Origin: a phage
Assembly (NCBI GenBank): GCA_029889005.1
Contig: GCA_029889005.1_4349.1
DNA: 44,477 nt
Reading direction: 5' to 3' (one strand)
Below, piece after piece: positions 1-42,495 of the stretch. The translations under genes were made by a program, and so were the position numbers. The notes beneath the pieces were generated by a model. That model did no database searches and was not told the origin of the DNA. It was given only the letters and a program-made list of their open reading frames with translations. Numbering within the stretch: the first letter of the stretch is position 1; every line of letters starts with the position of its first letter.

Positions 1-985
1 CATCGTTGATTATAGTATTACTTGCGGACTCAAACATCACGCACCCTGCTGTTTTATTTGTAGCATACCCGGAGTAGTCGCCCCGTATGCCGCTTACAAT
101 GTATCCAGACGGACCCCCATCGCCAGGGTATGCTATTAAACTAAATCCAGTTCCCTTTGCATTTTTAAAATCAATACCTTTAATAGTAACGTCCTGCCCA
201 CCGGCGAAGGAAACCTGCTGACCCTGTGTGGAGTCCGTTGCCTTATTTCCTACAATACTCAGGGTGCTAAGTAGCCCTCCTGCAGGTTTATCAAAGATTA
301 AGTGGTTTCCAGAATCGTTTGATTGTTTTAAAACCCCACCCCCTGTTCCGAATAGAGAGCATGTCGGGTGGGAGAGTAGCGACGTACTATACTCCCCTTG
401 CGGTACAAGCACCCCGTTACTAGCTGTAAGCGCTCGGTTAAGGGCGTTTGTGTAATCAGGGTCAGTACCTAAATAGAAGTCCAGAACGGAAACTACTTCT
501 CTATTTTTATCGTGTTGCGTCCTGCCGACAGCGTCGGTAAATGGTTGTCGGACGCCGACCATGGCATCACCTAATGTCGCATTGTCTGTGCTGGATAAAT
601 CATTCCGTAAATCAGGGTCAGTCTGCGGCTTCCAGTTAGCGTTACCAACCGGGTTAAACGATGCGGGGACAACAACCGGCAGAGTCCCGGTATATGAGTA
701 CCACGTCTTGCTTACAGGGTCATACACCACTTTGTCGCGGTCATTAACTGTTAACGTACCGCCGGTGGAAAAGTCCCACGATACGGGAGAAAAACCGGCA
801 TCACGCAACACAGCAGGAAGCGTCTTCTGGGTCTGCCCGGTAACAGGGTTGGTCGCGTAATCAATATCGGCGCCACCAGCAACCCCGCCGGATTTACCGG
901 TGATAACCTCGGCTTCAAAAATTTGGTGTTTCTTGGCGGTTTGTAAATCCGCCAGGCTTAAAACGTCACCGCATCCGCTTGACAT
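1..985 (-). CDS. Tailspike N-terminal protein (3' end runs off window start)
   Basis: ATG at 985..983 with AGAGGA 8 nt upstream, directly after fibre gene stop; frame open to position 1; N-terminal anchor-like region then beta-helix-like repeats. Not in ORF track because no in-window stop. Confidence 0.6.
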   Translation of the reverse strand, partial: MSSGCGDVLSLADLQTAKKHQIFEAEVITGKSGGVAGGADIDYATNPVTGQTQKTLPAVLRDAGFSPVSWDFSTGGTLTVNDRDKVVYDPVSKTWYSYTGTLPVVVPASFNPVGNANWKPQTDPDLRNDLSSTDNATLGDAMVGVRQPFTDAVGRTQHDKNREVVSVLDFYLGTDPDYTNALNRALTASNGVLVPQGEYSTSLLSHPTCSLFGTGGGVLKQSNDSGNHLIFDKPAGGLLSTLSIVGNKATDSTQGQQVSFAGGQDVTIKGIDFKNAKGTGFSLIAYPGDGGPSGYIVSGIRGDYSGYATNKTAGCVMFESASNTIIND

Positions 986-997
986 ATAGAGTCCTCT

Positions 998-3565
998 TTA
1001 ATTAAAACCATTGCTGAATCCGTCGGAGAAACCGCTGCCGTATGGCGCGACGCCGTCGTATTTATAGAATCCGTCGTCATAGTTGTAGCCAGTAATCTTA
1101 ACCGTGCGGTCGTCGCCGGGGTCGATTGAAGAAACAACTATCTTCTGAGCATTATGCCTTGCTTCGTTGCCGAATGAAAACTCAGTTTTCAGCGCACTAT
1201 TCCCTGTGTAGATTGCTTCCTCCGGCGCAGAGAGCATAATCACCTCGCGGTCGTGGTTTCCTTTGATAACAGAAATACTCTGCACGGAGCCATCGCGCTT
1301 CTTGAGGATGATGGAGTGGTCATCGCCGGGGGTAAACGTAACCGGCTGTGACAGTGTCAGCGTAAGCCCATTAACGGCAACAACATAGCCATCCTGCGGC
1401 GCGATACGCGAGCCTTTAACGACACTGATTACGCCGCCCGGTGTAGCGAGTGCCCCCTCTTCGGTAGCTTCGAACTCTACGACAACTTTACTTAACGCAT
1501 TGCGCTGATAGCGACGCCACGCCAGCCAGTACGCCTGCTGATAGTTGCGCACGCCTTTCGATTCGTATTCCTCAGTGTTTGCACCGAGTTCTTCCGGGAT
1601 ATAAATAGTTTCCTGTACGTTTGTATCCGGGTCGATGTACGAGAACGCCAGGCTATCGTAGGTAGTAGAATCGTTGAATGTGCGCGTCCATTTCTCTGTA
1701 CCGGTAGTTTTACTGCGGTGGGTGAACACCATTTCAGGCCCTGCAACCGGACGGTCGAAACGCAGCATAATGTCTGCGCCTTTACGGTACGCAGTACAAA
1801 ACACGGCTTCGGCTATAGTCTGAACGATGTCTTGCATGGTTGTGTCGTAGTCGTCGAATGTGTAGCAGAACTGCCCGGCTAATTCACTGTCAAAATACGA
1901 CTCAATTTCTTCCTGCACGGCAAGTAACTTGTCCATATTTGCCGTTGTCAGTTCCAGATTACCCACCACAGGGTCACGCGCCAGCCTGATTAGCGACTGC
2001 ACGGCCTGAGTGTTCGGTGTCATTACCGTATCGAATACGCCGTTACCTAAGTATTTGTAGCACATCTCGGTAGCAATCATGCGCAGTTCCGGTTCTGACA
2101 CCTCGGCTGCACGTGGGGTTTGTTTACGAGCACAGTGCACCGTAGTGCGGTTGCCGTAGTGCGGTGTTGTGTCCAGAGACTGTCCGTACAGGTTAGTGAA
2201 AGTAACCTCGTCGCTAACAGTACCCTCAAAATCTTTATCAGTATCGGAAACACGGCGCATACGGGCGCGGAATCTGGAAGCGGTAGGCAAGCTTCCGTAT
2301 AGGGTAATACCAGTGTAATCGGTGTTTCTCCCTGTAACAGTGCCTTGCACGGTGAATATGCCACCAACGGGCTGTTTCAATTCGTCCACCATCTGGTATT
2401 GCAGTTCCACCGTAACGGAGGCGCGGTTATAATCGCCGTTATATTTATACATGCCGTTGCTGGCGGCGACATTGGCTACAACACGGTTGACCGTACCGCG
2501 GGTGATGTACGCCCATTCAGAGAGGGAAGCCGCGTAAGTGTCCGCCGGACCTATGAGATGGTTACCCTCTTCACCTATAAACCATACAGATGTTCCTAGC
2601 TGGTTCCATATTGATTGATTTGTACTGACGTCCACAATAAGGGTCGTTTCACTAACAGAAAGAACCGTGTACCTCCCGTCCAGGTTAACCTCATTACCCA
2701 AAGACCCTGGGGTTGTATCTGCATATACGTTATCGAAGTATGCCAGGTCCCCGACCGCCAAAAACTCATCGAAACCAGCGTCATCGCCTACTACAACGCC
2801 GGTTGTTCCCTGCCGCTGGACAGTGTAGTCCTGCACGTCTATAGCGATATCATTAGGGGCGGGAAGAACAGCGCCATCGACATCGGCGTTTTTAAATGTA
2901 ACGTACAATTTCTGGTCTATAGGGTCGCCGATATGCAATTGTGGTGTGCTGGTGTTATTCGGCGAAGTGTAAGGAGAATACACCGTCACCGACGAGCCAG
3001 TTATCTCGCTGATTCGGGTATCTGCCTCAGTTACACCGTCTTCCTCAATATGCAGATACCCTCGACCGGCGTCATAGTACGCATATTCAATAAGCGCCCC
3101 CGTGGCGTTAAACACCTTATACGTCTGCATCAGGTCATTGGGTATAGTCTGCACTGTCCCGCAGATGTCATAAGAACGTTCATAAGGACGTGGCTTGTTC
3201 GAGCGGTCAGTAAGACTGTTGTTAGGCGACGTAGCCTGATTGTTGGTAGCGGAATAATTAGCGTTAGCTGCTGTGTTTAGCCCGAACAATTTGGCAATTG
3301 GCTTAAGGATGAAACTGAATACACTACCGATAGCGTCGCCGATACCACCGCCTGCACCCTCGATAATGTGGTACACGGCGTCCTCGTCTTTGAGCGCATT
3401 GAAGTCGTCTGTTACATCTGTATCATCGCCAATCTCACCGAGATAGACGCGCACAGGCACGCCGTAGGGAATACGGTTAACGACAAACTCCATCGGCATC
3501 CCGACGTGTTTTGTACGGTCGAAAGCGCCTTCAGCGTTTCGCGTGTAGTGCAGGATTATCGCCAA
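998..3565 (-). CDS. Large tail fibre / host-specificity (J-like) protein
   Basis: 855 aa ORF, TTG start with GGAG upstream, between distal tail genes and tailspike; call by size and position only. Confidence 0.5.
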   Translation of the reverse strand: MAIILHYTRNAEGAFDRTKHVGMPMEFVVNRIPYGVPVRVYLGEIGDDTDVTDDFNALKDEDAVYHIIEGAGGGIGDAIGSVFSFILKPIAKLFGLNTAANANYSATNNQATSPNNSLTDRSNKPRPYERSYDICGTVQTIPNDLMQTYKVFNATGALIEYAYYDAGRGYLHIEEDGVTEADTRISEITGSSVTVYSPYTSPNNTSTPQLHIGDPIDQKLYVTFKNADVDGAVLPAPNDIAIDVQDYTVQRQGTTGVVVGDDAGFDEFLAVGDLAYFDNVYADTTPGSLGNEVNLDGRYTVLSVSETTLIVDVSTNQSIWNQLGTSVWFIGEEGNHLIGPADTYAASLSEWAYITRGTVNRVVANVAASNGMYKYNGDYNRASVTVELQYQMVDELKQPVGGIFTVQGTVTGRNTDYTGITLYGSLPTASRFRARMRRVSDTDKDFEGTVSDEVTFTNLYGQSLDTTPHYGNRTTVHCARKQTPRAAEVSEPELRMIATEMCYKYLGNGVFDTVMTPNTQAVQSLIRLARDPVVGNLELTTANMDKLLAVQEEIESYFDSELAGQFCYTFDDYDTTMQDIVQTIAEAVFCTAYRKGADIMLRFDRPVAGPEMVFTHRSKTTGTEKWTRTFNDSTTYDSLAFSYIDPDTNVQETIYIPEELGANTEEYESKGVRNYQQAYWLAWRRYQRNALSKVVVEFEATEEGALATPGGVISVVKGSRIAPQDGYVVAVNGLTLTLSQPVTFTPGDDHSIILKKRDGSVQSISVIKGNHDREVIMLSAPEEAIYTGNSALKTEFSFGNEARHNAQKIVVSSIDPGDDRTVKITGYNYDDGFYKYDGVAPYGSGFSDGFSNGFN

Positions 3566-3921
3566 AATTCAATCTCCGTGTACGTGTCTCCGAGGTCCAC
3601 CAGCCTGTCAAGCCGTACCTGACGGGATGCAAGCTCGCAATGACTCACCATCCCGTCGAAGTAAACTCCAGCGTGCCACACGATACGACCCCCGCGGCGA
3701 TAACCCATAAGCACCGCGCAGAAGTTTTCAGGCTTATCAATTTTTGTAAGCCCCTTCGTGTCACGGTGGCCTTCGTCAAACGCTTCGTTAATTGCCGTTG
3801 GGCTTGTAACGTCGAACGCAGGGGTTTCTAACCCGGCATCCGCGCGGACAATGCGCACGTGATGCCAGCAATTGCGCTTGCGAAAGTCGTAAGGTATGCC
3901 CGTGTAGTCGTTAATATTCAT
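3556..3921 (-). CDS. Tail-associated NlpC/P60-like protein (K-like)
   Basis: 121 aa; candidate Cys/His catalytic residues (NCWHH ... WHAGVY ... SH); position between minor tail genes and fibre. Confidence 0.4.
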   Translation of the reverse strand: MNINDYTGIPYDFRKRNCWHHVRIVRADAGLETPAFDVTSPTAINEAFDEGHRDTKGLTKIDKPENFCAVLMGYRRGGRIVWHAGVYFDGMVSHCELASRQVRLDRLVDLGDTYTEIEFWR

Positions 3922-37137: not shown

Positions 37138-40100
37138 ATGAGTTACCTGTTCTTAGACTTTGAAACATTCTCAGAAGCCGATTTGAAGAAAGTCGGTTCT
37201 TACGCTTACGCCGAACACCCGTCAACCGAAGTGCTTATCTGTACATATGCTTTTGACGACGAACCTGTGCGGGTATGGGATTGCACCGACGGCAGCGACA
37301 TGCCGGGGGATTTACACCGCGCACTGCGCCGCCTTGTTAAGCCCAACAGCCGCATCAAGATGGTGTGGCACAACGGTGGACTTTTCGATCGCCTAATCAT
37401 GAAACACTGCTGGGACTTTGATATTCCGGTAAGTAACACCATTGATACTATGATTTGGGCGTTCCGTCACGCGCTGCCGGGTTCTCTTGATGCGCTGTGC
37501 GAAGTGCTGGGCGTGTCTGCAGACAACGCGAAAGATAAACGCGGAAAGGCTCTGATTAAGCGTTTCTCTAAACCGACGCCGAAGAACTACAAAATCCGCC
37601 GCTACACCGCAGAAACTCACCCTGACGAGTGGGCGATGTTCATCAGGTACGCCGTGAGCGACATCACTGCGATGCGTGAAGTCTTCCATAAGCTGCCGCG
37701 TTGGGGTAACTCCGAGTTCGAAGACCGTGTACTGGAACTTGACCAGTTAATCAACGACCGCGGATTTAAGGTTGACGTCGCACTGGCGGAAGCCGCGATT
37801 GAAGCCGTAGAGAAGCACAAGGCACAGTTACAGGAAGAAGCTCAACGTAAATACGGCGGCTCGCTTACCGGTAAAGACTTCCTTCCGATTCTGCGTGAAC
37901 TTGCGCCCGCGCACCGCATACACAATGCACAGAAGTCGACGCTTAACGACCTGTTGGCAGATGATGATTTACCGGACGACGCCCGGATGATTATCGAAAT
38001 GCGCCTCGGGGCCGCGTCAACAGCGTCCACGAAATATAACCCGCTGCTGTTAGGCCGCTCGTCGGACGACCGACGCCGCGGTTGTATCCAGTACGGCGGA
38101 GCCAAGCGTACATTACGATTTGCCGGTAAAGGCTTTCAGCCGCAGAACCTCGCGCGGGGGTACTATCACGATGATGAACTGGATAAAGGTATTTCAGCGT
38201 TACTTAAGGGCCGCGCGCATCGCCGTTTCGATGTCGCTAAGCTAACGGCATCGACGGTGCGTAGCTGCATTATCCCGGAAGCCGGAAAAAAGTTTGTCGT
38301 CGCCGATTACTCTAACGTTGAAGGTCGGGGGCTTGCGTGGCTGGCAGGCGAAGAAACCGCGCTCGATACATTCCGTGCGGGATTGGATATTTACTGCGTA
38401 ACAGCAGGTAAGATGTTCGGCATGGACCCTGATTACATCAAGAAAGAACGTAAAGACTTACGCCAGATTGGTAAAGCCTGTCTTCACCGCCATACCCAAG
38501 TTTTGACCGATGGCGGATTTAAGGATATTATGGCGGTCGCATCAACAGATAAAGTATGGAGTGGTGAAAAATGGGTGAATACAAAAGGCGCGCACCTTAT
38601 GGGGTGGAAACCGGTGATAAATGTGGACGGAGTGCTAATGACCGAAGACCACAAAATATTGACGCATTCCTGGAAGCAGGCAAAGCAACTCGTTTCAAAC
38701 AAATATATGATGGACCGCGCCCTGGAGATAGGTATGGACGCCTGGTTATCCTGCGCGAGTTACCAAAACGACAAGGTCATAGACAACTACTTGCTCAATG
38801 TGATTGCGGAGAGATTCCGGGGCGCGTCGGGTACGACAATGTTAGAAGGGGTAAAACCACTCAATGCAACCGCTGCGCACTTGAAGCAACAAAAAAATAT
38901 CGTAAACAGTATTTCTGCTACGAAGACGCAATGCCGGACGACGGGCACAGAGCGCGATTGCTCAACCGGTTATCTGCGGCAATATCGCGAACAACAAAAC
39001 CTAACGACAAAGGCTATAAAAACTATGGTGCCAGAGGGATTACCGTATGCGAAAAGTGGAAGGCCGATAGAAGGGCGTTTCTTCTCTATGTTCAAACTCT
39101 GGAAGGCTGGGATGACCCAAAACTCGAAATGGACAGAATCGACACAGACGGTAACTACGAACCTGGAAACATTCGGTTTGTCAGCCGTTCTGAAAACTGC
39201 CGTAACAGACGGCAAATACCTGAGCTTCAACGAAAGTATGATGCAGCCGTTGCCCGCATTGCTGAGCTTGAACGGGAAATTAACCTACTGCGAGCCGGTT
39301 TACGACCTGATTGATGTGGAAGACGGAAACCGTTTTCTTATAGCCTCCGACTCTGGCTTTCTTGTGGCGCATAACTGCGAACTTGGACTCGGCTACGCCG
39401 GGGGTGTCGGTGCTTTCGTTCAGTTCGCCAAGAACCTCGGCCTTGACCTTGTAGATATGGCAAAAACAATGGATGGGACTTTCCCTGACCACATCTGGGC
39501 CGCTACCGCGCGCGGGTACGAGTGGGCGCGTATTCAGGAAGCCAAGCGACCACCGCGTCCGGGTGAAAAGGATGACCGACCATCATATATTCTTGATAAG
39601 AAAGTCTGGCGTACATGCGACGCAATTAAGCGTATGTGGCGGGAGTCCCACCCGGAAACAGTAGCTTTCTGGCGTGATATTGAAGACGCAGCTATGGCAG
39701 CAATCCGTAATCCGGGGAAAGAGTTCACCGCTGGCCCTCGCGGGGTTAAGTTTTCTCGCAACGTAGAAACAGACAACAACGGCAACAAAGTCGCTGGTTG
39801 GTGGTTGCGCATGACGTTGCCGTCAGGTCGCGTTATGTCATACCCGGGCGTCGGGTTGAGCGTGTCAAAAGAGACAGACGAAGACGGAAAAGTTTCTACT
39901 AACGTGCGCATCAAGTATCAGGGTGAAAATCAGTTAACCAGGCAGTGGGGCTTCCAGTACACCTACTCCGGTAAACTGGTGGAAAACTGCACTCAGGCAC
40001 TGTGCCGTGACTTGCTGGCTAATGCGCTACTTAACGTTGAAGCAAACGGCTACCCGATTGTACTTCACGTACACGATGAGATTATCTGCGAGACACCAGA

Positions 40101-40215
40101 TTTACCAGAATACAATGTTGCAGAGCTTGAGCGATTGATGTGCGAATTACCAGAATGGGCGGAGGGGTTCCCTCTTGTAGCGGAAGGTCAGGAGTTAAAA
40201 CGCTATGCTAAGTAA
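37138..40215 (+). CDS. Family A (Pol I-like) DNA polymerase with 3'-5' exonuclease domain, interrupted by an intein
   Basis: Exo motif FLDFETFSE; motif A VVADYSNVEGRGLAW; motif B split as RQIGKA | intein | CELGLGYAGG; motif C VLHVHDEIICE. Confidence 0.9.
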   Translation: MSYLFLDFETFSEADLKKVGSYAYAEHPSTEVLICTYAFDDEPVRVWDCTDGSDMPGDLHRALRRLVKPNSRIKMVWHNGGLFDRLIMKHCWDFDIPVSNTIDTMIWAFRHALPGSLDALCEVLGVSADNAKDKRGKALIKRFSKPTPKNYKIRRYTAETHPDEWAMFIRYAVSDITAMREVFHKLPRWGNSEFEDRVLELDQLINDRGFKVDVALAEAAIEAVEKHKAQLQEEAQRKYGGSLTGKDFLPILRELAPAHRIHNAQKSTLNDLLADDDLPDDARMIIEMRLGAASTASTKYNPLLLGRSSDDRRRGCIQYGGAKRTLRFAGKGFQPQNLARGYYHDDELDKGISALLKGRAHRRFDVAKLTASTVRSCIIPEAGKKFVVADYSNVEGRGLAWLAGEETALDTFRAGLDIYCVTAGKMFGMDPDYIKKERKDLRQIGKACLHRHTQVLTDGGFKDIMAVASTDKVWSGEKWVNTKGAHLMGWKPVINVDGVLMTEDHKILTHSWKQAKQLVSNKYMMDRALEIGMDAWLSCASYQNDKVIDNYLLNVIAERFRGASGTTMLEGVKPLNATAAHLKQQKNIVNSISATKTQCRTTGTERDCSTGYLRQYREQQNLTTKAIKTMVPEGLPYAKSGRPIEGRFFSMFKLWKAGMTQNSKWTESTQTVTTNLETFGLSAVLKTAVTDGKYLSFNESMMQPLPALLSLNGKLTYCEPVYDLIDVEDGNRFLIASDSGFLVAHNCELGLGYAGGVGAFVQFAKNLGLDLVDMAKTMDGTFPDHIWAATARGYEWARIQEAKRPPRPGEKDDRPSYILDKKVWRTCDAIKRMWRESHPETVAFWRDIEDAAMAAIRNPGKEFTAGPRGVKFSRNVETDNNGNKVAGWWLRMTLPSGRVMSYPGVGLSVSKETDEDGKVSTNVRIKYQGENQLTRQWGFQYTYSGKLVENCTQALCRDLLANALLNVEANGYPIVLHVHDEIICETPDLPEYNVAELERLMCELPEWAEGFPLVAEGQELKRYAK
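38479..39375 (+). mobile_element. Intein (299 aa) inserted in polymerase motif B
   Basis: N-terminal CLHRHTQVLTDGG (block A) and GVLMTEDHKILT (block B); C-terminal VYDLIDVEDGNRFLIASDSGFLVAHN then +1 Cys. Confidence 0.8.
38571..39314 (+). CDS. HNH homing endonuclease encoded inside the intein in a different reading frame
   Basis: 247 aa ORF out of frame with the polymerase; ATG directly follows an in-frame TGA with GGTGA 4 nt upstream; motifs RYGRLVILREL ... CDCG ... CNRC, YKNYGARGITVCEKW, LEMDRIDTDGNYEPGNIRFVSRSEN. Confidence 0.75.
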   Translation: MGEYKRRAPYGVETGDKCGRSANDRRPQNIDAFLEAGKATRFKQIYDGPRPGDRYGRLVILRELPKRQGHRQLLAQCDCGEIPGRVGYDNVRRGKTTQCNRCALEATKKYRKQYFCYEDAMPDDGHRARLLNRLSAAISRTTKPNDKGYKNYGARGITVCEKWKADRRAFLLYVQTLEGWDDPKLEMDRIDTDGNYEPGNIRFVSRSENCRNRRQIPELQRKYDAAVARIAELEREINLLRAGLRPD

Positions 40216-40882: not shown

Positions 40883-41074
40883 ATGAAACACGAATATGAC
40901 CGCAAGCCAGCACGTGACATCGTACCTGGCGACATGATTTTCAACGTTAAGACCCGCCAGCCTGTTGCCGTTGATACGGTGTTCGTCGAGTCGAACGGTA
41001 AACTGGTTATCGAAGATGTAACTGGTAACGTTACGGCGTTCGGGCGTAAAGAGCTGGTGCTGGTGGCAAAATGA
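40883..41074 (+). CDS. Small protein, hypothetical
   Basis: 63 aa; AAGGAATT RBS; weak similarity to 18014..18226 product. Confidence 0.45.
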   Translation: MKHEYDRKPARDIVPGDMIFNVKTRQPVAVDTVFVESNGKLVIEDVTGNVTAFGRKELVLVAK

Positions 41075-42495
41075 GTAAGTTTCAAAGGCGCGAATACCAG
41101 AAGCTCATGACTTCGTTCATGCTGCAACACCCTCGCTGTAATATCTGGTGTGGCATGGGAGGGGGTAAAACCTCCTCTACTATGTGGGTGTTAAACCGCT
41201 TGTTCCGCAACGGGCAGCTTACAGAAGAGGACCGCGTGTTAATCCTCGCCCCGTTGCGTGTTGCGTCGGGTACGTGGCCTGCAGAACAAGAGAAATGGAA
41301 CTTCCCTTGTCTGCGTGTCGTCGATGCGACCGGTTCGGAGAAGCGCCGCATCGCGGCGCTGGAGTCAGACGCTAACGTGGTGTGCACTAACTACGAAGTT
41401 ATCGAGTGGCTAATTGACTACTACGGCAAAGACGACTGGCCTTTTACGGTTATCGTTGCCGATGAAAGCACGAAGCTTAAATCGTTCCGCAGCCGTTCGG
41501 GTGGTAGCAAGCGGGCAAAGGCGCTCAGCAAGGTTGCGTTCGGAAAGGTTAAGCGTTTCATCAACCTGACAGGCACACCGTCACCAAACGGCCTCAAAGA
41601 CTTGTGGGGTCAGAACTGGTTTATCGACGCTGGCGAGCGCCTCGGCTCTTCGTACACAGCATTCACCGACCGCTGGTTTAACTCGGTACAGAAAGGTAAA
41701 TCGGCCATGGCCCGCGAGTATCATGCACGACCGGGTGCGGATAATGAGATTCATCAGAAGATGAAAGACATCAGCCTGACCATAGACCCTGCCGAGTGGT
41801 TTGGTTGTGAAGCGCCTGTTATCGTACCGGTGGAAATAGACCTGCCGAAGAAAGCGCGTCAGGCGTACATAGATATGGAGGAGAAGTTATTCGCAGAACT
41901 GGAGAGCGGGGAAGTTGAAGCGGCTAACGCTGCGGCGAAGACCTCAAAGTGCTTGCAGATTGCATCTGGTGCTGTATATGTAACCGGGCCAGACGGCGAA
42001 GCAACCAAAGAATGGGAGAAAGTGCACGACACGAAACTGGATGCGCTCGAGTCGATTGTTGAGGAGTTGCAGGGTGCGCCGTTGCTGGTAGCCTATCAGT
42101 TTAAACACGAACTGGAGCGTATCCTTAAGCGATTCCCACAGGCACAGGCGTTCGCCAAAGGCGCTAGGGGGAACAAGCAGATGGAAGCGTGGAACCGTGG
42201 GGAAATCGAGATTTTATGCGTGCATCCTGCGTCAGCCGGGCATGGTTTGAATTTACAGGACGGGGGTCATCATCTGGCGTTCGTCTCGCAAGGCTGGAAC
42301 CTTGAGCACTATTTGCAGGTTGTTGAGCGCATAGGTCCAACACGCCAGAAACAGGCGGGTCACGAGCGCCCGGTGTTCCTTTATCACATCGTTGCTAAAG
42401 ACACTCTGGACGAGGTTGTCGCCGCGCGTACCGACGAGAAGAAATCGGTACAGGAAGAGTTGCTTAATTACATGAAGAGACGAGGTAAGAAATGA
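41071..42495 (+). CDS. SNF2-family helicase
   Basis: Walker A GMGGGKT, DExx box VIVADEST, LTGTPSPNGLKDLW motif, C-terminal helicase domain. Confidence 0.8.
   Translation: MSKFQRREYQKLMTSFMLQHPRCNIWCGMGGGKTSSTMWVLNRLFRNGQLTEEDRVLILAPLRVASGTWPAEQEKWNFPCLRVVDATGSEKRRIAALESDANVVCTNYEVIEWLIDYYGKDDWPFTVIVADESTKLKSFRSRSGGSKRAKALSKVAFGKVKRFINLTGTPSPNGLKDLWGQNWFIDAGERLGSSYTAFTDRWFNSVQKGKSAMAREYHARPGADNEIHQKMKDISLTIDPAEWFGCEAPVIVPVEIDLPKKARQAYIDMEEKLFAELESGEVEAANAAAKTSKCLQIASGAVYVTGPDGEATKEWEKVHDTKLDALESIVEELQGAPLLVAYQFKHELERILKRFPQAQAFAKGARGNKQMEAWNRGEIEILCVHPASAGHGLNLQDGGHHLAFVSQGWNLEHYLQVVERIGPTRQKQAGHERPVFLYHIVAKDTLDEVVAARTDEKKSVQEELLNYMKRRGKK

What the first reader, a model, noticed from the sequence alone, without database searches (positions are those of the whole stretch)
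38479..39375. Intein in DNA polymerase motif B whose interior encodes a complete HNH endonuclease in a different reading frame
The polymerase ORF is unbroken, and residues between RQIGKA and CELGLGYAGG carry intein blocks A, B, F and G with terminal HN and +1 Cys. Its ~190 aa central in-frame region shows no endonuclease motifs. A 247 aa HNH ORF with its own ATG and RBS-like GGTGA lies entirely inside the intein in another frame, so ~744 nt appear dual-coding. Both frames being stop-free over that length is very unlikely by chance.
Basis: partly seen in the sequence, partly recalled or inferred. Interest (0 to 1): 0.9.

Follow-up and report, generated by a model that had tools for sequence, protein, structure and literature searches.

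The report
Polymerase intein hiding an out-of-frame endonuclease gene
A self-splicing protein insert (intein) in this phage's DNA polymerase carries, in a different reading frame of the same DNA, a separate and selectively maintained endonuclease gene that probably drives the insert's spread; this layout was first described in 2025 for other phages and turns out here to be shared by a large, old family.

Summary
The 1025-aa family A DNA polymerase ORF (37138-40215) is unbroken. It contains an 897-nt class-1 intein (38479-39375) in motif B, which is exactly the segment missing from intein-less alleles of close relatives. A 247-aa ORF (38571-39314) lies wholly inside the intein in the -1/+2 frame and matches families annotated as HNH endonuclease (PHROG 374, E=3e-47).

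Shuffling predicts 4-6 polymerase-frame stops across this ORF; none is seen. In 85 of 86 related loci (40-90% protein identity) the same nesting holds, always in the same relative frame.

Codon-position diversity changes phase. The polymerase frame is under selection at both intein ends. The HNH frame is under selection from about 38688 to 39257, where the in-frame peptide is no more conserved than the non-coding frame and is predicted disordered.

The intein is 94% identical to Salmonella-phage inteins whose exteins are only 72-88% identical, which suggests recent horizontal transfer.

The intein was already annotated in relatives. The nested ORF was annotated in Sodalis phage SO-1 as intron-encoded, which I think is wrong. 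The architecture itself was reported in a 2025 preprint with a different endonuclease family. I class this as a new member of a known kind. Caveat: no Pfam HNH hit and no canonical catalytic His, and no activity is shown.

The parts
37138..38478 (+). N-extein of the family A DNA polymerase (3'-5' exonuclease domain, and polymerase domain up to motif B ...RQIGKA)
   Evidence: Pfam DNA_pol_A 3e-13 and PHROG 17. Normal codon periodicity, with diversity highest at position 3 (0.425).
38479..39375 (+). Class-1 intein, 299 aa, read in the polymerase frame
   Evidence: C1, T55, H58, H298 and N299 are invariant in 46 homologues. Bas74, Jersey and K1ind2 lack exactly 897 nt here. A profile hits PDB inteins at 2e-4. 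Ent2 annotates the same 897 nt as an intein.
38479..38687 (+). N-terminal splicing region of the intein (block A Cys1, motif LWDGxxWV, block B TEDH at 38641-38652)
   Evidence: Diversity peaks at polymerase codon position 3. Intein-frame identity is 0.47 against 0.28 in the ORF2 frame. Model pLDDT is 71-93 for residues 1-60, all beta strands.
38558..38567 (+). Shine-Dalgarno-like GGAG / GGTGA upstream of the ORF2 start, made from intein codons (W-S-G)
   Evidence: sequence. Anti-SD duplex is -8.2 kcal/mol here. It averages -8.9 in the 16 loci whose first ATG is at this site, against a background of -2.6.
38571..39314 (+). ORF2: 247-aa HNH-family (PHROG 374) putative homing endonuclease in the +2/-1 frame of the polymerase. 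The ATG is built from AAA+TGG (Lys-Trp of the intein).
   Evidence: PHROG 374 at 3.3e-47. More than 1100 homologues of ~240-250 aa. Invariant Cys4, YG.RGI and DRID..YEPGN.RF...N..N.R motifs. AF2 pLDDT 81.7. The start-site codon is ATG, GTG or TTG in 46 of 46 loci.
38688..39257 (+). Central stretch where only the ORF2 frame is under amino-acid selection. In the polymerase frame it is an open, unconserved, probably disordered linker.
   Evidence: Diversity peaks at polymerase position 2, which is ORF2 position 3 (0.183-0.187). In the centre (38748-39257) identity is 0.53 in the ORF2 frame, 0.26 in the intein frame and 0.25 in the non-coding frame. pLDDT is below 50 for intein residues 81-255.
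39258..39375 (+). C-terminal splicing region (block F PVYDL..., block G GFLVAHN). The first 57 nt overlap the ORF2 C-terminal helix and stop codon.
   Evidence: D276, F286, G293, H298 and N299 invariant. (39315-39375: 46 synonymous / 2 non-synonymous changes in the polymerase frame). (pLDDT 76-83, beta strands).
39376..40215 (+). C-extein of the polymerase, starting with +1 Cys (CELGLGYAGG, the rest of motif B) and including motif C
38503..38531 (+). Sigma-70-like site TTGACC-17-TATTAT about 40 nt upstream of ORF2. A possible internal promoter; this is a weak lead only.
   Evidence: a 10/12 match, but 3 sites in the region against 1.9+/-1.4 expected; the hexamers are mostly kept in close relatives.

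Best explanation
This is a composite selfish element with two parts: a class-1 intein in motif B of the phage's family A DNA polymerase, and a separately translated homing-endonuclease gene written over the intein's middle in the -1/+2 frame.

Ribosomes reading the polymerase frame make a precursor. In it the intein's N part (~70 aa) and C part (~30-45 aa) fold into a Hint domain around a ~175-aa linker. That linker has no sequence constraint other than containing no stop codon. Splicing then removes all 299 aa and restores the O-helix.

Independently, ribosomes initiate at the internal ATG (38571). This codon is created by the wobble A of a Lys codon plus the TG of a conserved Trp codon, and it is preceded by an SD-like GGAG/GGTGA that is itself made of intein codons. 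They produce a 247-aa protein whose first ~50 residues are a disordered leader. Its core (residues ~52-215) is a Cys4 zinc module followed by a beta-beta-alpha nuclease-like motif and a long C-terminal helix.

In mixed infections this protein is proposed to cut intein-less polymerase alleles near the motif-B coding DNA. Repair from the intein-bearing copy would then transfer intein and endonuclease gene together with some flanking sequence.

Shown here: the anatomy, the frame-specific selection, the precise presence/absence polymorphism, the mosaic identity pattern, and conservation of the arrangement across a large family. Inferred: splicing, translation of ORF2, nuclease activity and its target.
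For: - Open frames: 0 polymerase-frame stops against 4-6 expected, P = 5e-5 to 5e-3.
- Conservation of the arrangement: 85 of 86 loci with ORF2 homologues have the ORF inside a 277-299-aa intein of a ~900-1250-aa PolA ORF. The host frame is always the HNH frame +1, and the third frame is always closed. Two ~0.9-kb metagenome contigs show the same.
- Phase switch of codon-position diversity. At polymerase positions 1/2/3 it is 0.106/0.065/0.425 (N-extein), 0.052/0.011/0.160 (intein N), 0.041/0.183/0.071 (centre) and 0.012/0.000/0.184 (intein C). In the centre, synonymous/non-synonymous changes are 408/293 in the ORF2 frame against 89/639 in the polymerase frame.
- Deep conservation in the centre: HNH frame 0.53, intein frame 0.26, non-coding frame 0.25.
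- Intein identity: blocks A, B, F and G invariant; PDB inteins at 2e-4; Foldseek top hits are all inteins; no group I intron in Rfam.
- ORF2 identity: PHROG 374 at 3e-47, plus five further matched families annotated as HNH, restriction endonuclease or endonuclease VII and one of unknown function; a confident model; free-standing relatives annotated HNH beside polymerase genes.
- Start site: ATG 36 / GTG 9 / TTG 1 of 46, never CTG; SD-like duplex.
- Mobility: intein-less alleles lack exactly 897 nt. The intein is 94.0% identical to VT223 while the exteins are 72.7-88.9% identical, and 84.2% identical to SO-1 while the exteins are 64-77%. Across 44 diverse loci, mean identity is 0.56 for the HNH core and 0.51 for the splicing parts, against 0.34 for the extein flanks. 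HNH and intein distances correlate (Mantel r=0.50, 0 of 2000 permutations).
- A free-standing relative has 10 stops in its +1 frame over 177 codons.
Against: - Nothing here shows translation of ORF2, protein splicing or DNA cleavage.
- No Pfam HNH-type model hits ORF2 or 39 of its homologues.
- The His expected at the end of the first beta strand is an invariant Arg preceded by Asp (D188-R189). The catalytic mechanism, or even catalytic competence, is therefore uncertain.
- No Pfam or NCBIfam intein model hits the in-frame sequence.
- In the 25 loci whose first ATG lies five codons earlier, no SD-like sequence precedes that ATG.
- High conservation of the element relative to the exteins could in part reflect the double constraint of overlapping frames rather than recent transfer.
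Confidence: 0.8

Rival explanations
1. [quoted passage not shown] The open polymerase frame would then be incidental.
For: The SO-1 record labels gp38 'contains type I self-splicing intron' and the nested gp39 'HNH endonuclease; type I self-splicing intron'. HNH-bearing group I introns are known in phage DNA polymerase genes, for example Pf-WMP3 (PMC3428280, listed).
Against: Rfam finds no match at E<=1 on either strand. The host frame is open in 85 of 86 loci, which an intron does not need. Both ends of the insert show polymerase-frame codon periodicity and strong amino-acid conservation (46 synonymous / 2 non-synonymous at 39315-39375). The intein blocks C1, TxxH and HN with +1 C/S are invariant. 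A profile matches solved inteins.
Confidence: 0.03
2. ORF2 is a relic. A free-standing or formerly in-frame endonuclease gene is no longer expressed, and it persists only because stop codons in the polymerase frame are lethal. The intein would now be inherited vertically as a de facto mini-intein with a long linker.
For: No expression data exist. There is no canonical catalytic His and no Pfam HNH hit. Selection against polymerase-frame stops alone would keep that frame open.
Against: Keeping the polymerase frame open does not keep the ORF2 frame open or conserved. Yet ORF2 is full length in 85 of 86 loci. It shows ORF2-phase periodicity and 408/293 synonymous/non-synonymous changes. It has 25 invariant residues across sequences down to ~36-40% identity and a conserved start codon. 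The intein is more similar between phages than their polymerase genes are.
Confidence: 0.08
3. The endonuclease is made as a fusion. A -1 ribosomal frameshift within the intein's N-terminal region moves ribosomes from the polymerase frame into the ORF2 frame, giving N-extein-intein(N)-HNH instead of, or as well as, a free 247-aa protein.
For: ORF2 is in the -1 frame of the polymerase. An A-run, GAAAAAT, spans the junction at 38566-38572 and is kept in close relatives. In several distant loci the HNH frame is open back to the start of the intein.
Against: In the window a TGA at 38565-38567 closes the ORF2 frame two codons before the ATG. The A-run is absent from most distant relatives (for example GTTGAATGGGT). 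A start codon at the fixed site is universal. There is no canonical X XXY YYZ heptamer in the polymerase frame.
Confidence: 0.04
4. The frame difference is a sequencing or assembly artefact (compensating indels), and the real element is a canonical intein with an in-frame HNH domain.
For: Salmonella phage SS3e shows a fusion of the intein N-terminus with the HNH frame (P0007). It is caused by two 1-nt insertions relative to the window.
Against: More than 160 independently sequenced phage genomes and 80 IMG/VR contigs share the same frame relation with no indels. The SS3e insertions break the polymerase ORF, so they look like errors in an old record. Phase-specific substitution patterns cannot arise from an artefact.
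Confidence: 0.01

Closest known systems
Actinobacteriophage 'non-canonical' inteins with an endonuclease VII-like homing endonuclease in frame 3 (Gosselin, Arsenault & Gogarten, bioRxiv 10.1101/2025.01.02.630785)
   Same: A same-strand endonuclease ORF lies between the splicing blocks in 'frame 3' relative to the intein. The in-frame middle has no recognisable structure. There are signs of continued horizontal transfer. The proposed origin is invasion of an intein by a free-standing endonuclease gene.
   Different: The endonuclease family differs. Theirs is T4 endo VII-like (CxxC...VDHDHxTGxVRGLLCxxCN); ours is the DRID..YEPGN.RF family (PHROG 374). The hosts differ (actinophages against enterobacterial Guernseyvirinae and many metagenomic phages), and so does the host site within the host gene (here motif B of family A polymerase, PolA). 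They call the arrangement rare. Here it holds in 85 of 86 loci of a family with more than 1100 detected homologues, and it is conserved down to ~40% identity.
ShiLan domain: an out-of-frame 'hidden' HNH endonuclease insertion in a mycobacteriophage DNA methylase (Arsenault et al. 2025, PMC11855218)
   Same: The insertion keeps the host frame open while encoding an HNH endonuclease in another frame. Its distribution suggests homing.
   Different: ShiLan has no detectable splicing domains and is thought to stay in the host protein. Here, complete intein blocks flank the endonuclease gene.
Canonical bifunctional inteins (in-frame LAGLIDADG or HNH domain between the splicing halves)
   Same: The endonuclease coding region sits at the same position within the Hint domain. 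The presumed life cycle is the same: homing plus protein splicing.
   Different: The endonuclease is not part of the intein polypeptide. It needs its own initiation, and the in-frame peptide at that position is filler.
Fractured genes: split inteins with a free-standing endonuclease gene between the halves (Dassa et al. 2009, PMC2677866)
   Same: A free-standing endonuclease gene is associated with intein halves. The same evolutionary model applies (a homing endonuclease gene invades an intein).
   Different: There the host gene and the intein are physically split and splice in trans. Here the host ORF stays continuous because the overlapping frame is stop-free.
The Guernseyvirinae polymerase intein as already annotated (vB_SenS-Ent1/Ent2 mat_peptide 'intein, encoding splicing domains'; many 'intein-containing DNA polymerase precursor' records)
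   Same: It is the same 897-nt element at the same site.
   Different: Those records describe only splicing domains and do not annotate the nested ORF. SO-1 does annotate it, but as intron-encoded.

Membership tests
Intein (class 1, Hint domain) | In-frame insertion at a conserved site of a host protein, precisely absent from close homologues | tested here: met
   Bas74, Jersey and K1ind2 lack exactly 897 nt, leaving ...GKA|CELGLGY intact.
Intein (class 1, Hint domain) | Block A N-terminal Cys/Ser and block B TxxH | tested here: met
   C1, T55 and H58 are invariant in 46 sequences.
Intein (class 1, Hint domain) | Blocks F and G with terminal His-Asn, followed by +1 Cys/Ser/Thr | tested here: met
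   D276, F286, G293, H298 and N299 are invariant. The +1 residue is Cys (or Ser in a few) in 83 loci.
Intein (class 1, Hint domain) | Sequence or fold similarity to solved Hint domains | tested here: met
   The profile matches PI-MtuI/RecA mini-intein at 2e-4, plus the Neq polymerase and DnaX inteins. The Foldseek top 13 are all inteins but weak (E>=0.085, probability 0.98).
Intein (class 1, Hint domain) | Match to curated intein models (Pfam / NCBIfam) | tested here: not met
   No intein or Hint family at E<=1. The family is divergent.
Intein (class 1, Hint domain) | Protein splicing activity | not testable with these tools
   Inferred from the essential O-helix position and from viable phages.
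HNH / beta-beta-alpha-Me homing endonuclease | Similarity to families annotated as HNH endonuclease | tested here: met
   PHROG 374 at 3.3e-47; also PHROGs 2081, 3377, 953 (HNH), 8790 (restriction endonuclease) and 1035 (endonuclease VII). GenBank names for SO-1 gp39, SS3e and Soft gp79 agree.
HNH / beta-beta-alpha-Me homing endonuclease | Match to curated Pfam HNH-type models | tested here: not met
   None for ORF2 or for the 39 aligned homologues, nor for free-standing Soft gp79.
HNH / beta-beta-alpha-Me homing endonuclease | Beta-beta-alpha-metal fold | tested here: inconclusive
HNH / beta-beta-alpha-Me homing endonuclease | Catalytic His at the end of the first strand; conserved Asn residues | tested here: inconclusive
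   N200, N209 and N212 are invariant. The expected His position holds D188-R189 (R invariant). H126 is nearly invariant but lies elsewhere.
HNH / beta-beta-alpha-Me homing endonuclease | Site-specific DNA cleavage of the empty allele | not testable with these tools
   -
Inteins with a homing endonuclease in a separate reading frame (Gosselin et al. 2025) | Endonuclease ORF between the splicing blocks, on the same strand, in a different frame; in-frame middle unstructured | tested here: met
Inteins with a homing endonuclease in a separate reading frame (Gosselin et al. 2025) | Endonuclease of the endonuclease VII-like type | tested here: not met
   Their sequences encode VDHDH...CN motifs. ORF2 has different motifs and only a weak PHROG endo VII hit at 1.8e-5.
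Group I intron with an HNH ORF | Ribozyme core detectable; no need for an open host frame | tested here: not met
   No Rfam match at E<=1. The host frame is open in 85 of 86 loci, with polymerase-frame selection at both ends.

The most novel reading that the evidence does not exclude
This is not a transient accident. It is one member of a large, ancient clade of PolA motif-B inteins in which the homing endonuclease has always been a separately translated, overprinted gene, and the arrangement is a stable end-state. The start codon and ribosome-binding site are built from the intein's own conserved Trp/Asp/Gly codons. The endonuclease gene and the splicing domain co-diverge. The unit has colonised at least four adjacent insertion points in motif B of very different polymerases. 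If this is right, uncoupling the nuclease from the intein polypeptide is a viable long-term strategy. It would also be direct evidence for the 'free-standing endonuclease gene invades a mini-intein' origin of bifunctional inteins.
Probability: 0.6. Interest if true: 0.75.

Novelty: new member of a known kind. Interest (0 to 1): 0.62.

Why it matters
Inteins are usually described as one polypeptide with splicing and homing activities. Here the two activities are encoded by two overlapping genes kept together for a long evolutionary time.

This gives a tractable enterobacterial phage system (E. coli and Salmonella phages, with natural intein-plus and intein-less alleles about 90% identical). It could be used to test three things:
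- how free-standing endonuclease genes become intein-associated;
- how an overprinted gene is expressed from inside an essential gene;
- how much arbitrary sequence a Hint domain tolerates as a linker.

It also corrects database annotation in two ways. The nested gene is missing from most records (only SO-1 and SS3e were seen to name it), and SO-1 calls it intron-encoded. It also shows that gene callers systematically miss such genes.

Tried and rejected
- Group I intron: an Rfam search of 38200-39700 at E<=1 found nothing. Rejected.
- In-frame endonuclease: Pfam and NCBIfam scans of the in-frame intein found nothing relevant. The PHROG 93 hit is just the same polymerase/intein family.
- Pfam on ORF2 and 39 homologues gave only weak coiled-coil-type hits and CapR, so 'HNH' could not be confirmed with curated models.
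- Protein-database searches with the in-frame intein and with a mini-intein profile returned only 5 and 11 hits, probably because of the word index. The MSA for the intein model was therefore shallow (16 sequences, mean pLDDT 52). These searches did reveal related mini-inteins.
- The SS3e exception was examined and attributed to two 1-nt insertions that break the polymerase gene.
- -1 frameshifting was considered and judged unlikely, given the TGA before the ATG and the non-conserved A-run.
- RNA structure around the ORF2 start is not unusual (z = 0.34).
- The internal promoter-like site is not above chance.
- Literature searches found no paper describing the nested gene in the Guernseyvirinae polymerase intein.
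Full report
**1. What is there**

The window is a complete Kagunavirus-like (Guernseyvirinae) Escherichia phage genome. Its structural half is 92-94% identical to phages vB_EcoS-22664BS2 and Golestan.

The 1025-aa ORF at 37138-40215 is a family A DNA polymerase with a 3'-5' exonuclease domain (Pfam DNA_pol_A 3e-13, PHROG 17). Between ...RQIGKA and CELGLGYAGG... lies a 299-aa segment (38479-39375). Those flanks align to the motif B / O-helix pattern RRxxKxxNFGxxYG; that assignment is from my own knowledge of family A polymerases. The segment starts with Cys, has TEDH at residues 55-58 and ends in His-Asn, followed by Cys.

A 247-aa ORF with an ATG start (38571-39314) lies entirely inside it. 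It is offset by 1433 nt from the polymerase start, which puts it in the +2 (= -1) frame.

**2. Is it more than chance?**

Across ORF2 the polymerase frame has no stop codon and the third frame has 27.
- Keeping the ORF2 protein and permuting its synonymous codons gives 5.6 polymerase-frame stops on average, and an open frame in 1 of 20,000 trials.
- Redrawing codons from this phage's own usage gives 4.3 stops and P = 0.005.
- Other genes of the window have 9-16 stops in the equivalent frame.
- A free-standing relative of ORF2 (Klebsiella phage Soft gp79) has 10 such stops in 177 codons.

**3. The intein**

Intein-less alleles exist in close relatives (Escherichia phages Bas74 and K1ind2, and Salmonella phage Jersey). 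They lack exactly 897 nt and read GKA|CELGLGY.

I collected 86 loci that encode ORF2 homologues: 80 from IMG/VR, 4 from metagenome contigs and 2 from GenBank phages. In 83 of them the intein limits could be set (277-299 aa). A 46-sequence non-redundant alignment has C1, T6, V8, G13, W27, G29, W32, G37, T55, H58, W65, D276, F286, G293, H298 and N299 invariant.

A profile of that alignment finds solved inteins (PI-MtuI/RecA mini-intein 2e-4, Neq polymerase intein 8e-4, DnaX mini-intein 0.05). The AlphaFold model, built from a shallow alignment, is confident only for residues 1-60 and 256-299, all beta strands. Its 13 best Foldseek matches are all inteins, though at weak E-values. Pfam and NCBIfam intein models do not hit. 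Rfam finds no group I intron. GenBank records of relatives already call this an intein; Ent2 annotates the same 897 nt as 'intein, encoding splicing domains'.

**4. ORF2**

ORF2 matches PHROG 374 'HNH endonuclease' at 3.3e-47, five further families annotated HNH, restriction endonuclease or endonuclease VII, and one family of unknown function. More than 1100 database proteins are homologous, most of 236-250 aa. Forty of them share 25 invariant residues:
- a Cys4 cluster (C77, C79, C99, C102);
- YG.RGI;
- DRID..YEPGN.RF...N..N.R.

The AlphaFold model is good (mean pLDDT 81.7). Residues 1-27 are disordered. It has a small beta domain, helices, a strand-strand-helix unit at 185-243 and a long C-terminal helix.

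Free-standing relatives (~30% identity) in Casjensviridae, Staphylococcus, Enterococcus and other phages align only to residues ~52-215. The first ~50 residues are therefore an add-on specific to the nested form.

Caveats on the 'HNH' label:
- No Pfam HNH model hits.
- The residue where the HNH general-base His is expected is an invariant Arg preceded by Asp.

'HNH' is therefore a family label, not a demonstrated chemistry.

**5. Which frame is selected where**

Among 15 distinct close relatives, nucleotide diversity by polymerase codon position (1/2/3) is:

| Region | pos 1 | pos 2 | pos 3 |
|---|---|---|---|
| N-extein | 0.106 | 0.065 | 0.425 |
| 38479-38570 | 0.052 | 0.011 | 0.160 |
| 38571-38687 | 0.048 | 0.022 | 0.074 |
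| 38688-38747 | 0.019 | 0.187 | 0.055 |
| 38748-39257 | 0.041 | 0.183 | 0.071 |
| 39258-39314 | 0.007 | 0.063 | 0.095 |
| 39315-39375 | 0.012 | 0.000 | 0.184 |
| C-extein | 0.108 | 0.075 | 0.379 |

Polymerase position 2 is ORF2 position 3. The periodicity therefore jumps into the ORF2 phase at about 38688 and back at about 39260-39315. In the centre, codon changes are 408 synonymous / 293 non-synonymous in the ORF2 frame, against 89 / 639 in the polymerase frame.

Among 46 sequences below 80% identity, mean pairwise identity in the centre is 0.53 (HNH frame), 0.26 (intein frame) and 0.25 (the frame that is not coding at all). In 38568-38687 the intein frame wins, 0.47 to 0.28.

The in-frame centre is rich in Thr, Ser, Ala and Gly and has pLDDT 27-46. 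So the polymerase-frame reading of the centre is filler, and its only detectable constraint is the absence of stops. ORF2 is a real gene. Its N-terminal leader is overprinted on the intein's N-terminal splicing region.

**6. The arrangement is old and general**

In 85 of 86 loci the HNH ORF lies inside an intein of a 900-1250-aa PolA ORF. The host frame is always the HNH frame +1, and the third frame is always closed. The exception, SS3e, has two single-base insertions that break the polymerase gene and looks like an error-laden record.

Two ~0.9-kb metagenome contigs are simply the element plus ~60 nt of flank, open throughout in the host frame. That explains why so many homologues sit on ~1-kb contigs.

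The inteins occupy at least four neighbouring positions in motif B: RQIGK|S, GKA|C, GKVA|C and GKVQELA|C.

The ORF2 start sits at a fixed place, the wobble base before the second Trp of the intein motif WDGxxW. The resulting codon is ATG in 36, GTG in 9 and TTG in 1 of 46 loci, never CTG. The W-D-G codons upstream give an SD-like duplex, with a mean of -8.9 kcal/mol in the 16 loci whose first ATG is there.

Related mini-inteins without the ~175-aa middle exist, at the same PolA site (P0132) and at another PolA site (P0135).

**7. Mobility**

The window's intein is 94.0% identical to that of Salmonella phage VT223, while the flanking polymerase segments are 72.7-88.9% identical. Against SO-1 the figures are 84.2% and 64-77%. 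The nearest intein-less allele (Bas74) is 88-97% identical in the exteins.

Across 44 diverse loci, the HNH core (0.56) and the splicing parts (0.51) are much more alike than 240 aa of flanking polymerase (0.34). HNH and intein distances correlate (Mantel r = 0.50, 0 of 2000 permutations). This is the pattern expected of an element that moves as a unit between polymerase genes. Part of the excess conservation could also come from the overlap itself.

**8. Mechanism (inferred)**

One transcript would yield two products.
- Polymerase-frame translation gives a precursor. Its Hint halves fold around a disordered linker and splice, restoring the O-helix.
- Internal initiation at 38571 gives the endonuclease, presumably at a low level.
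- The endonuclease cuts intein-less alleles near motif B in co-infecting phages, and repair copies the whole element.

A promoter-like TTGACC-17-TATTAT at 38503-38531 is a possible extra route to expression, but it is not above chance.

**9. Comparison with what is known**

- The intein itself is already annotated in relatives.
- The nested ORF is annotated in SO-1 as intron-encoded, and in SS3e.
- The architecture, an endonuclease gene in 'frame 3' inside an intein, was reported as new by Gosselin, Arsenault and Gogarten (bioRxiv 2025). Their case is in actinophage inteins and involves an endonuclease VII-like gene. Their sequences belong to a different endonuclease family.
- The same group described an out-of-frame HNH insertion without splicing domains in a methylase (PMC11855218).
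- I found no paper describing the nested gene in the Guernseyvirinae polymerase intein.

**10. Verdict**

I class this as a new member of a recently described kind. It adds frame-specific selection evidence, a conserved start-site mechanism, and a demonstration that the arrangement is widespread and old. Nuclease chemistry, expression and splicing remain untested.

Noticed in passing
window 38503-38531: A sigma-70-like TTGACC-17-TATTAT (10/12) lies inside the intein's N-terminal coding region, about 40 nt upstream of the ORF2 start. The hexamers are mostly kept in close relatives, but the site count in the region is not above chance.
   Followed up: partly
window 38556-38573: A three-codon mini-ORF, ATG GAG TGG TGA, in the ORF2 frame ends 3 nt before the ORF2 ATG. 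In Sodalis phage SO-1 the same upstream ATG is in frame and extends the protein (MERRKMGEY...).
   Followed up: partly
L095 (Sodalis phage SO-1, NC_013600.1) 434-3622 and 1918-2676: The record annotates the nested HNH gene (gp39) and the polymerase (gp38) as containing a 'type I self-splicing intron'. The evidence here points to an intein, so the annotation is probably wrong.
   Followed up: yes
L019 (Salmonella phage SS3e, IMG/VR copy) about 2940 and 3215: Two single-base insertions relative to the window fuse the intein N-terminus to the HNH frame and break the polymerase ORF. These are probably sequencing errors in an old record.
   Followed up: yes
L087 (Salmonella phage SAP012) about 2480-3040; L088 (Klebsiella phage Soft) 2513-3043: Free-standing ~177-aa relatives of ORF2 sit immediately downstream of an intein-less polymerase gene in a syntenic replication module (ssDNA-binding protein, polymerase, HNH, VRR-NUC, helicase). 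The SAP012 copy is unannotated.
   Followed up: partly
proteins P0132, P0135, P0126: Related Hint domains occur as mini-inteins without the endonuclease region: at the same PolA site (HN|CGYGGG), at a second PolA site near motif C (SN|CTQA), and in a PolA fragment that carries parts of two inteins.
   Followed up: no
window 41071-42495: The helicase (474 aa) lacks the LAGLIDADG intein that interrupts the orthologous helicase of Salmonella phage Ent2. This phage therefore has the polymerase intein but not the helicase intein.
   Followed up: partly
L090 (Escherichia phage Bas74) 2697-3392: The closest intein-less relative carries a 231-aa gene annotated 'endonuclease VII' just downstream of the polymerase gene. 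The window has only small ORFs before the VRR-NUC gene at that position. It may be another mobile endonuclease at this locus.
   Followed up: no
L096, L097 and the contig lengths: Most metagenomic ORF2 homologues sit on contigs of ~0.9-1.1 kb that correspond to the intein plus ~60 nt of flank. This suggests assembly graphs break at the intein borders because the same element sits in different polymerase backgrounds.
   Followed up: partly
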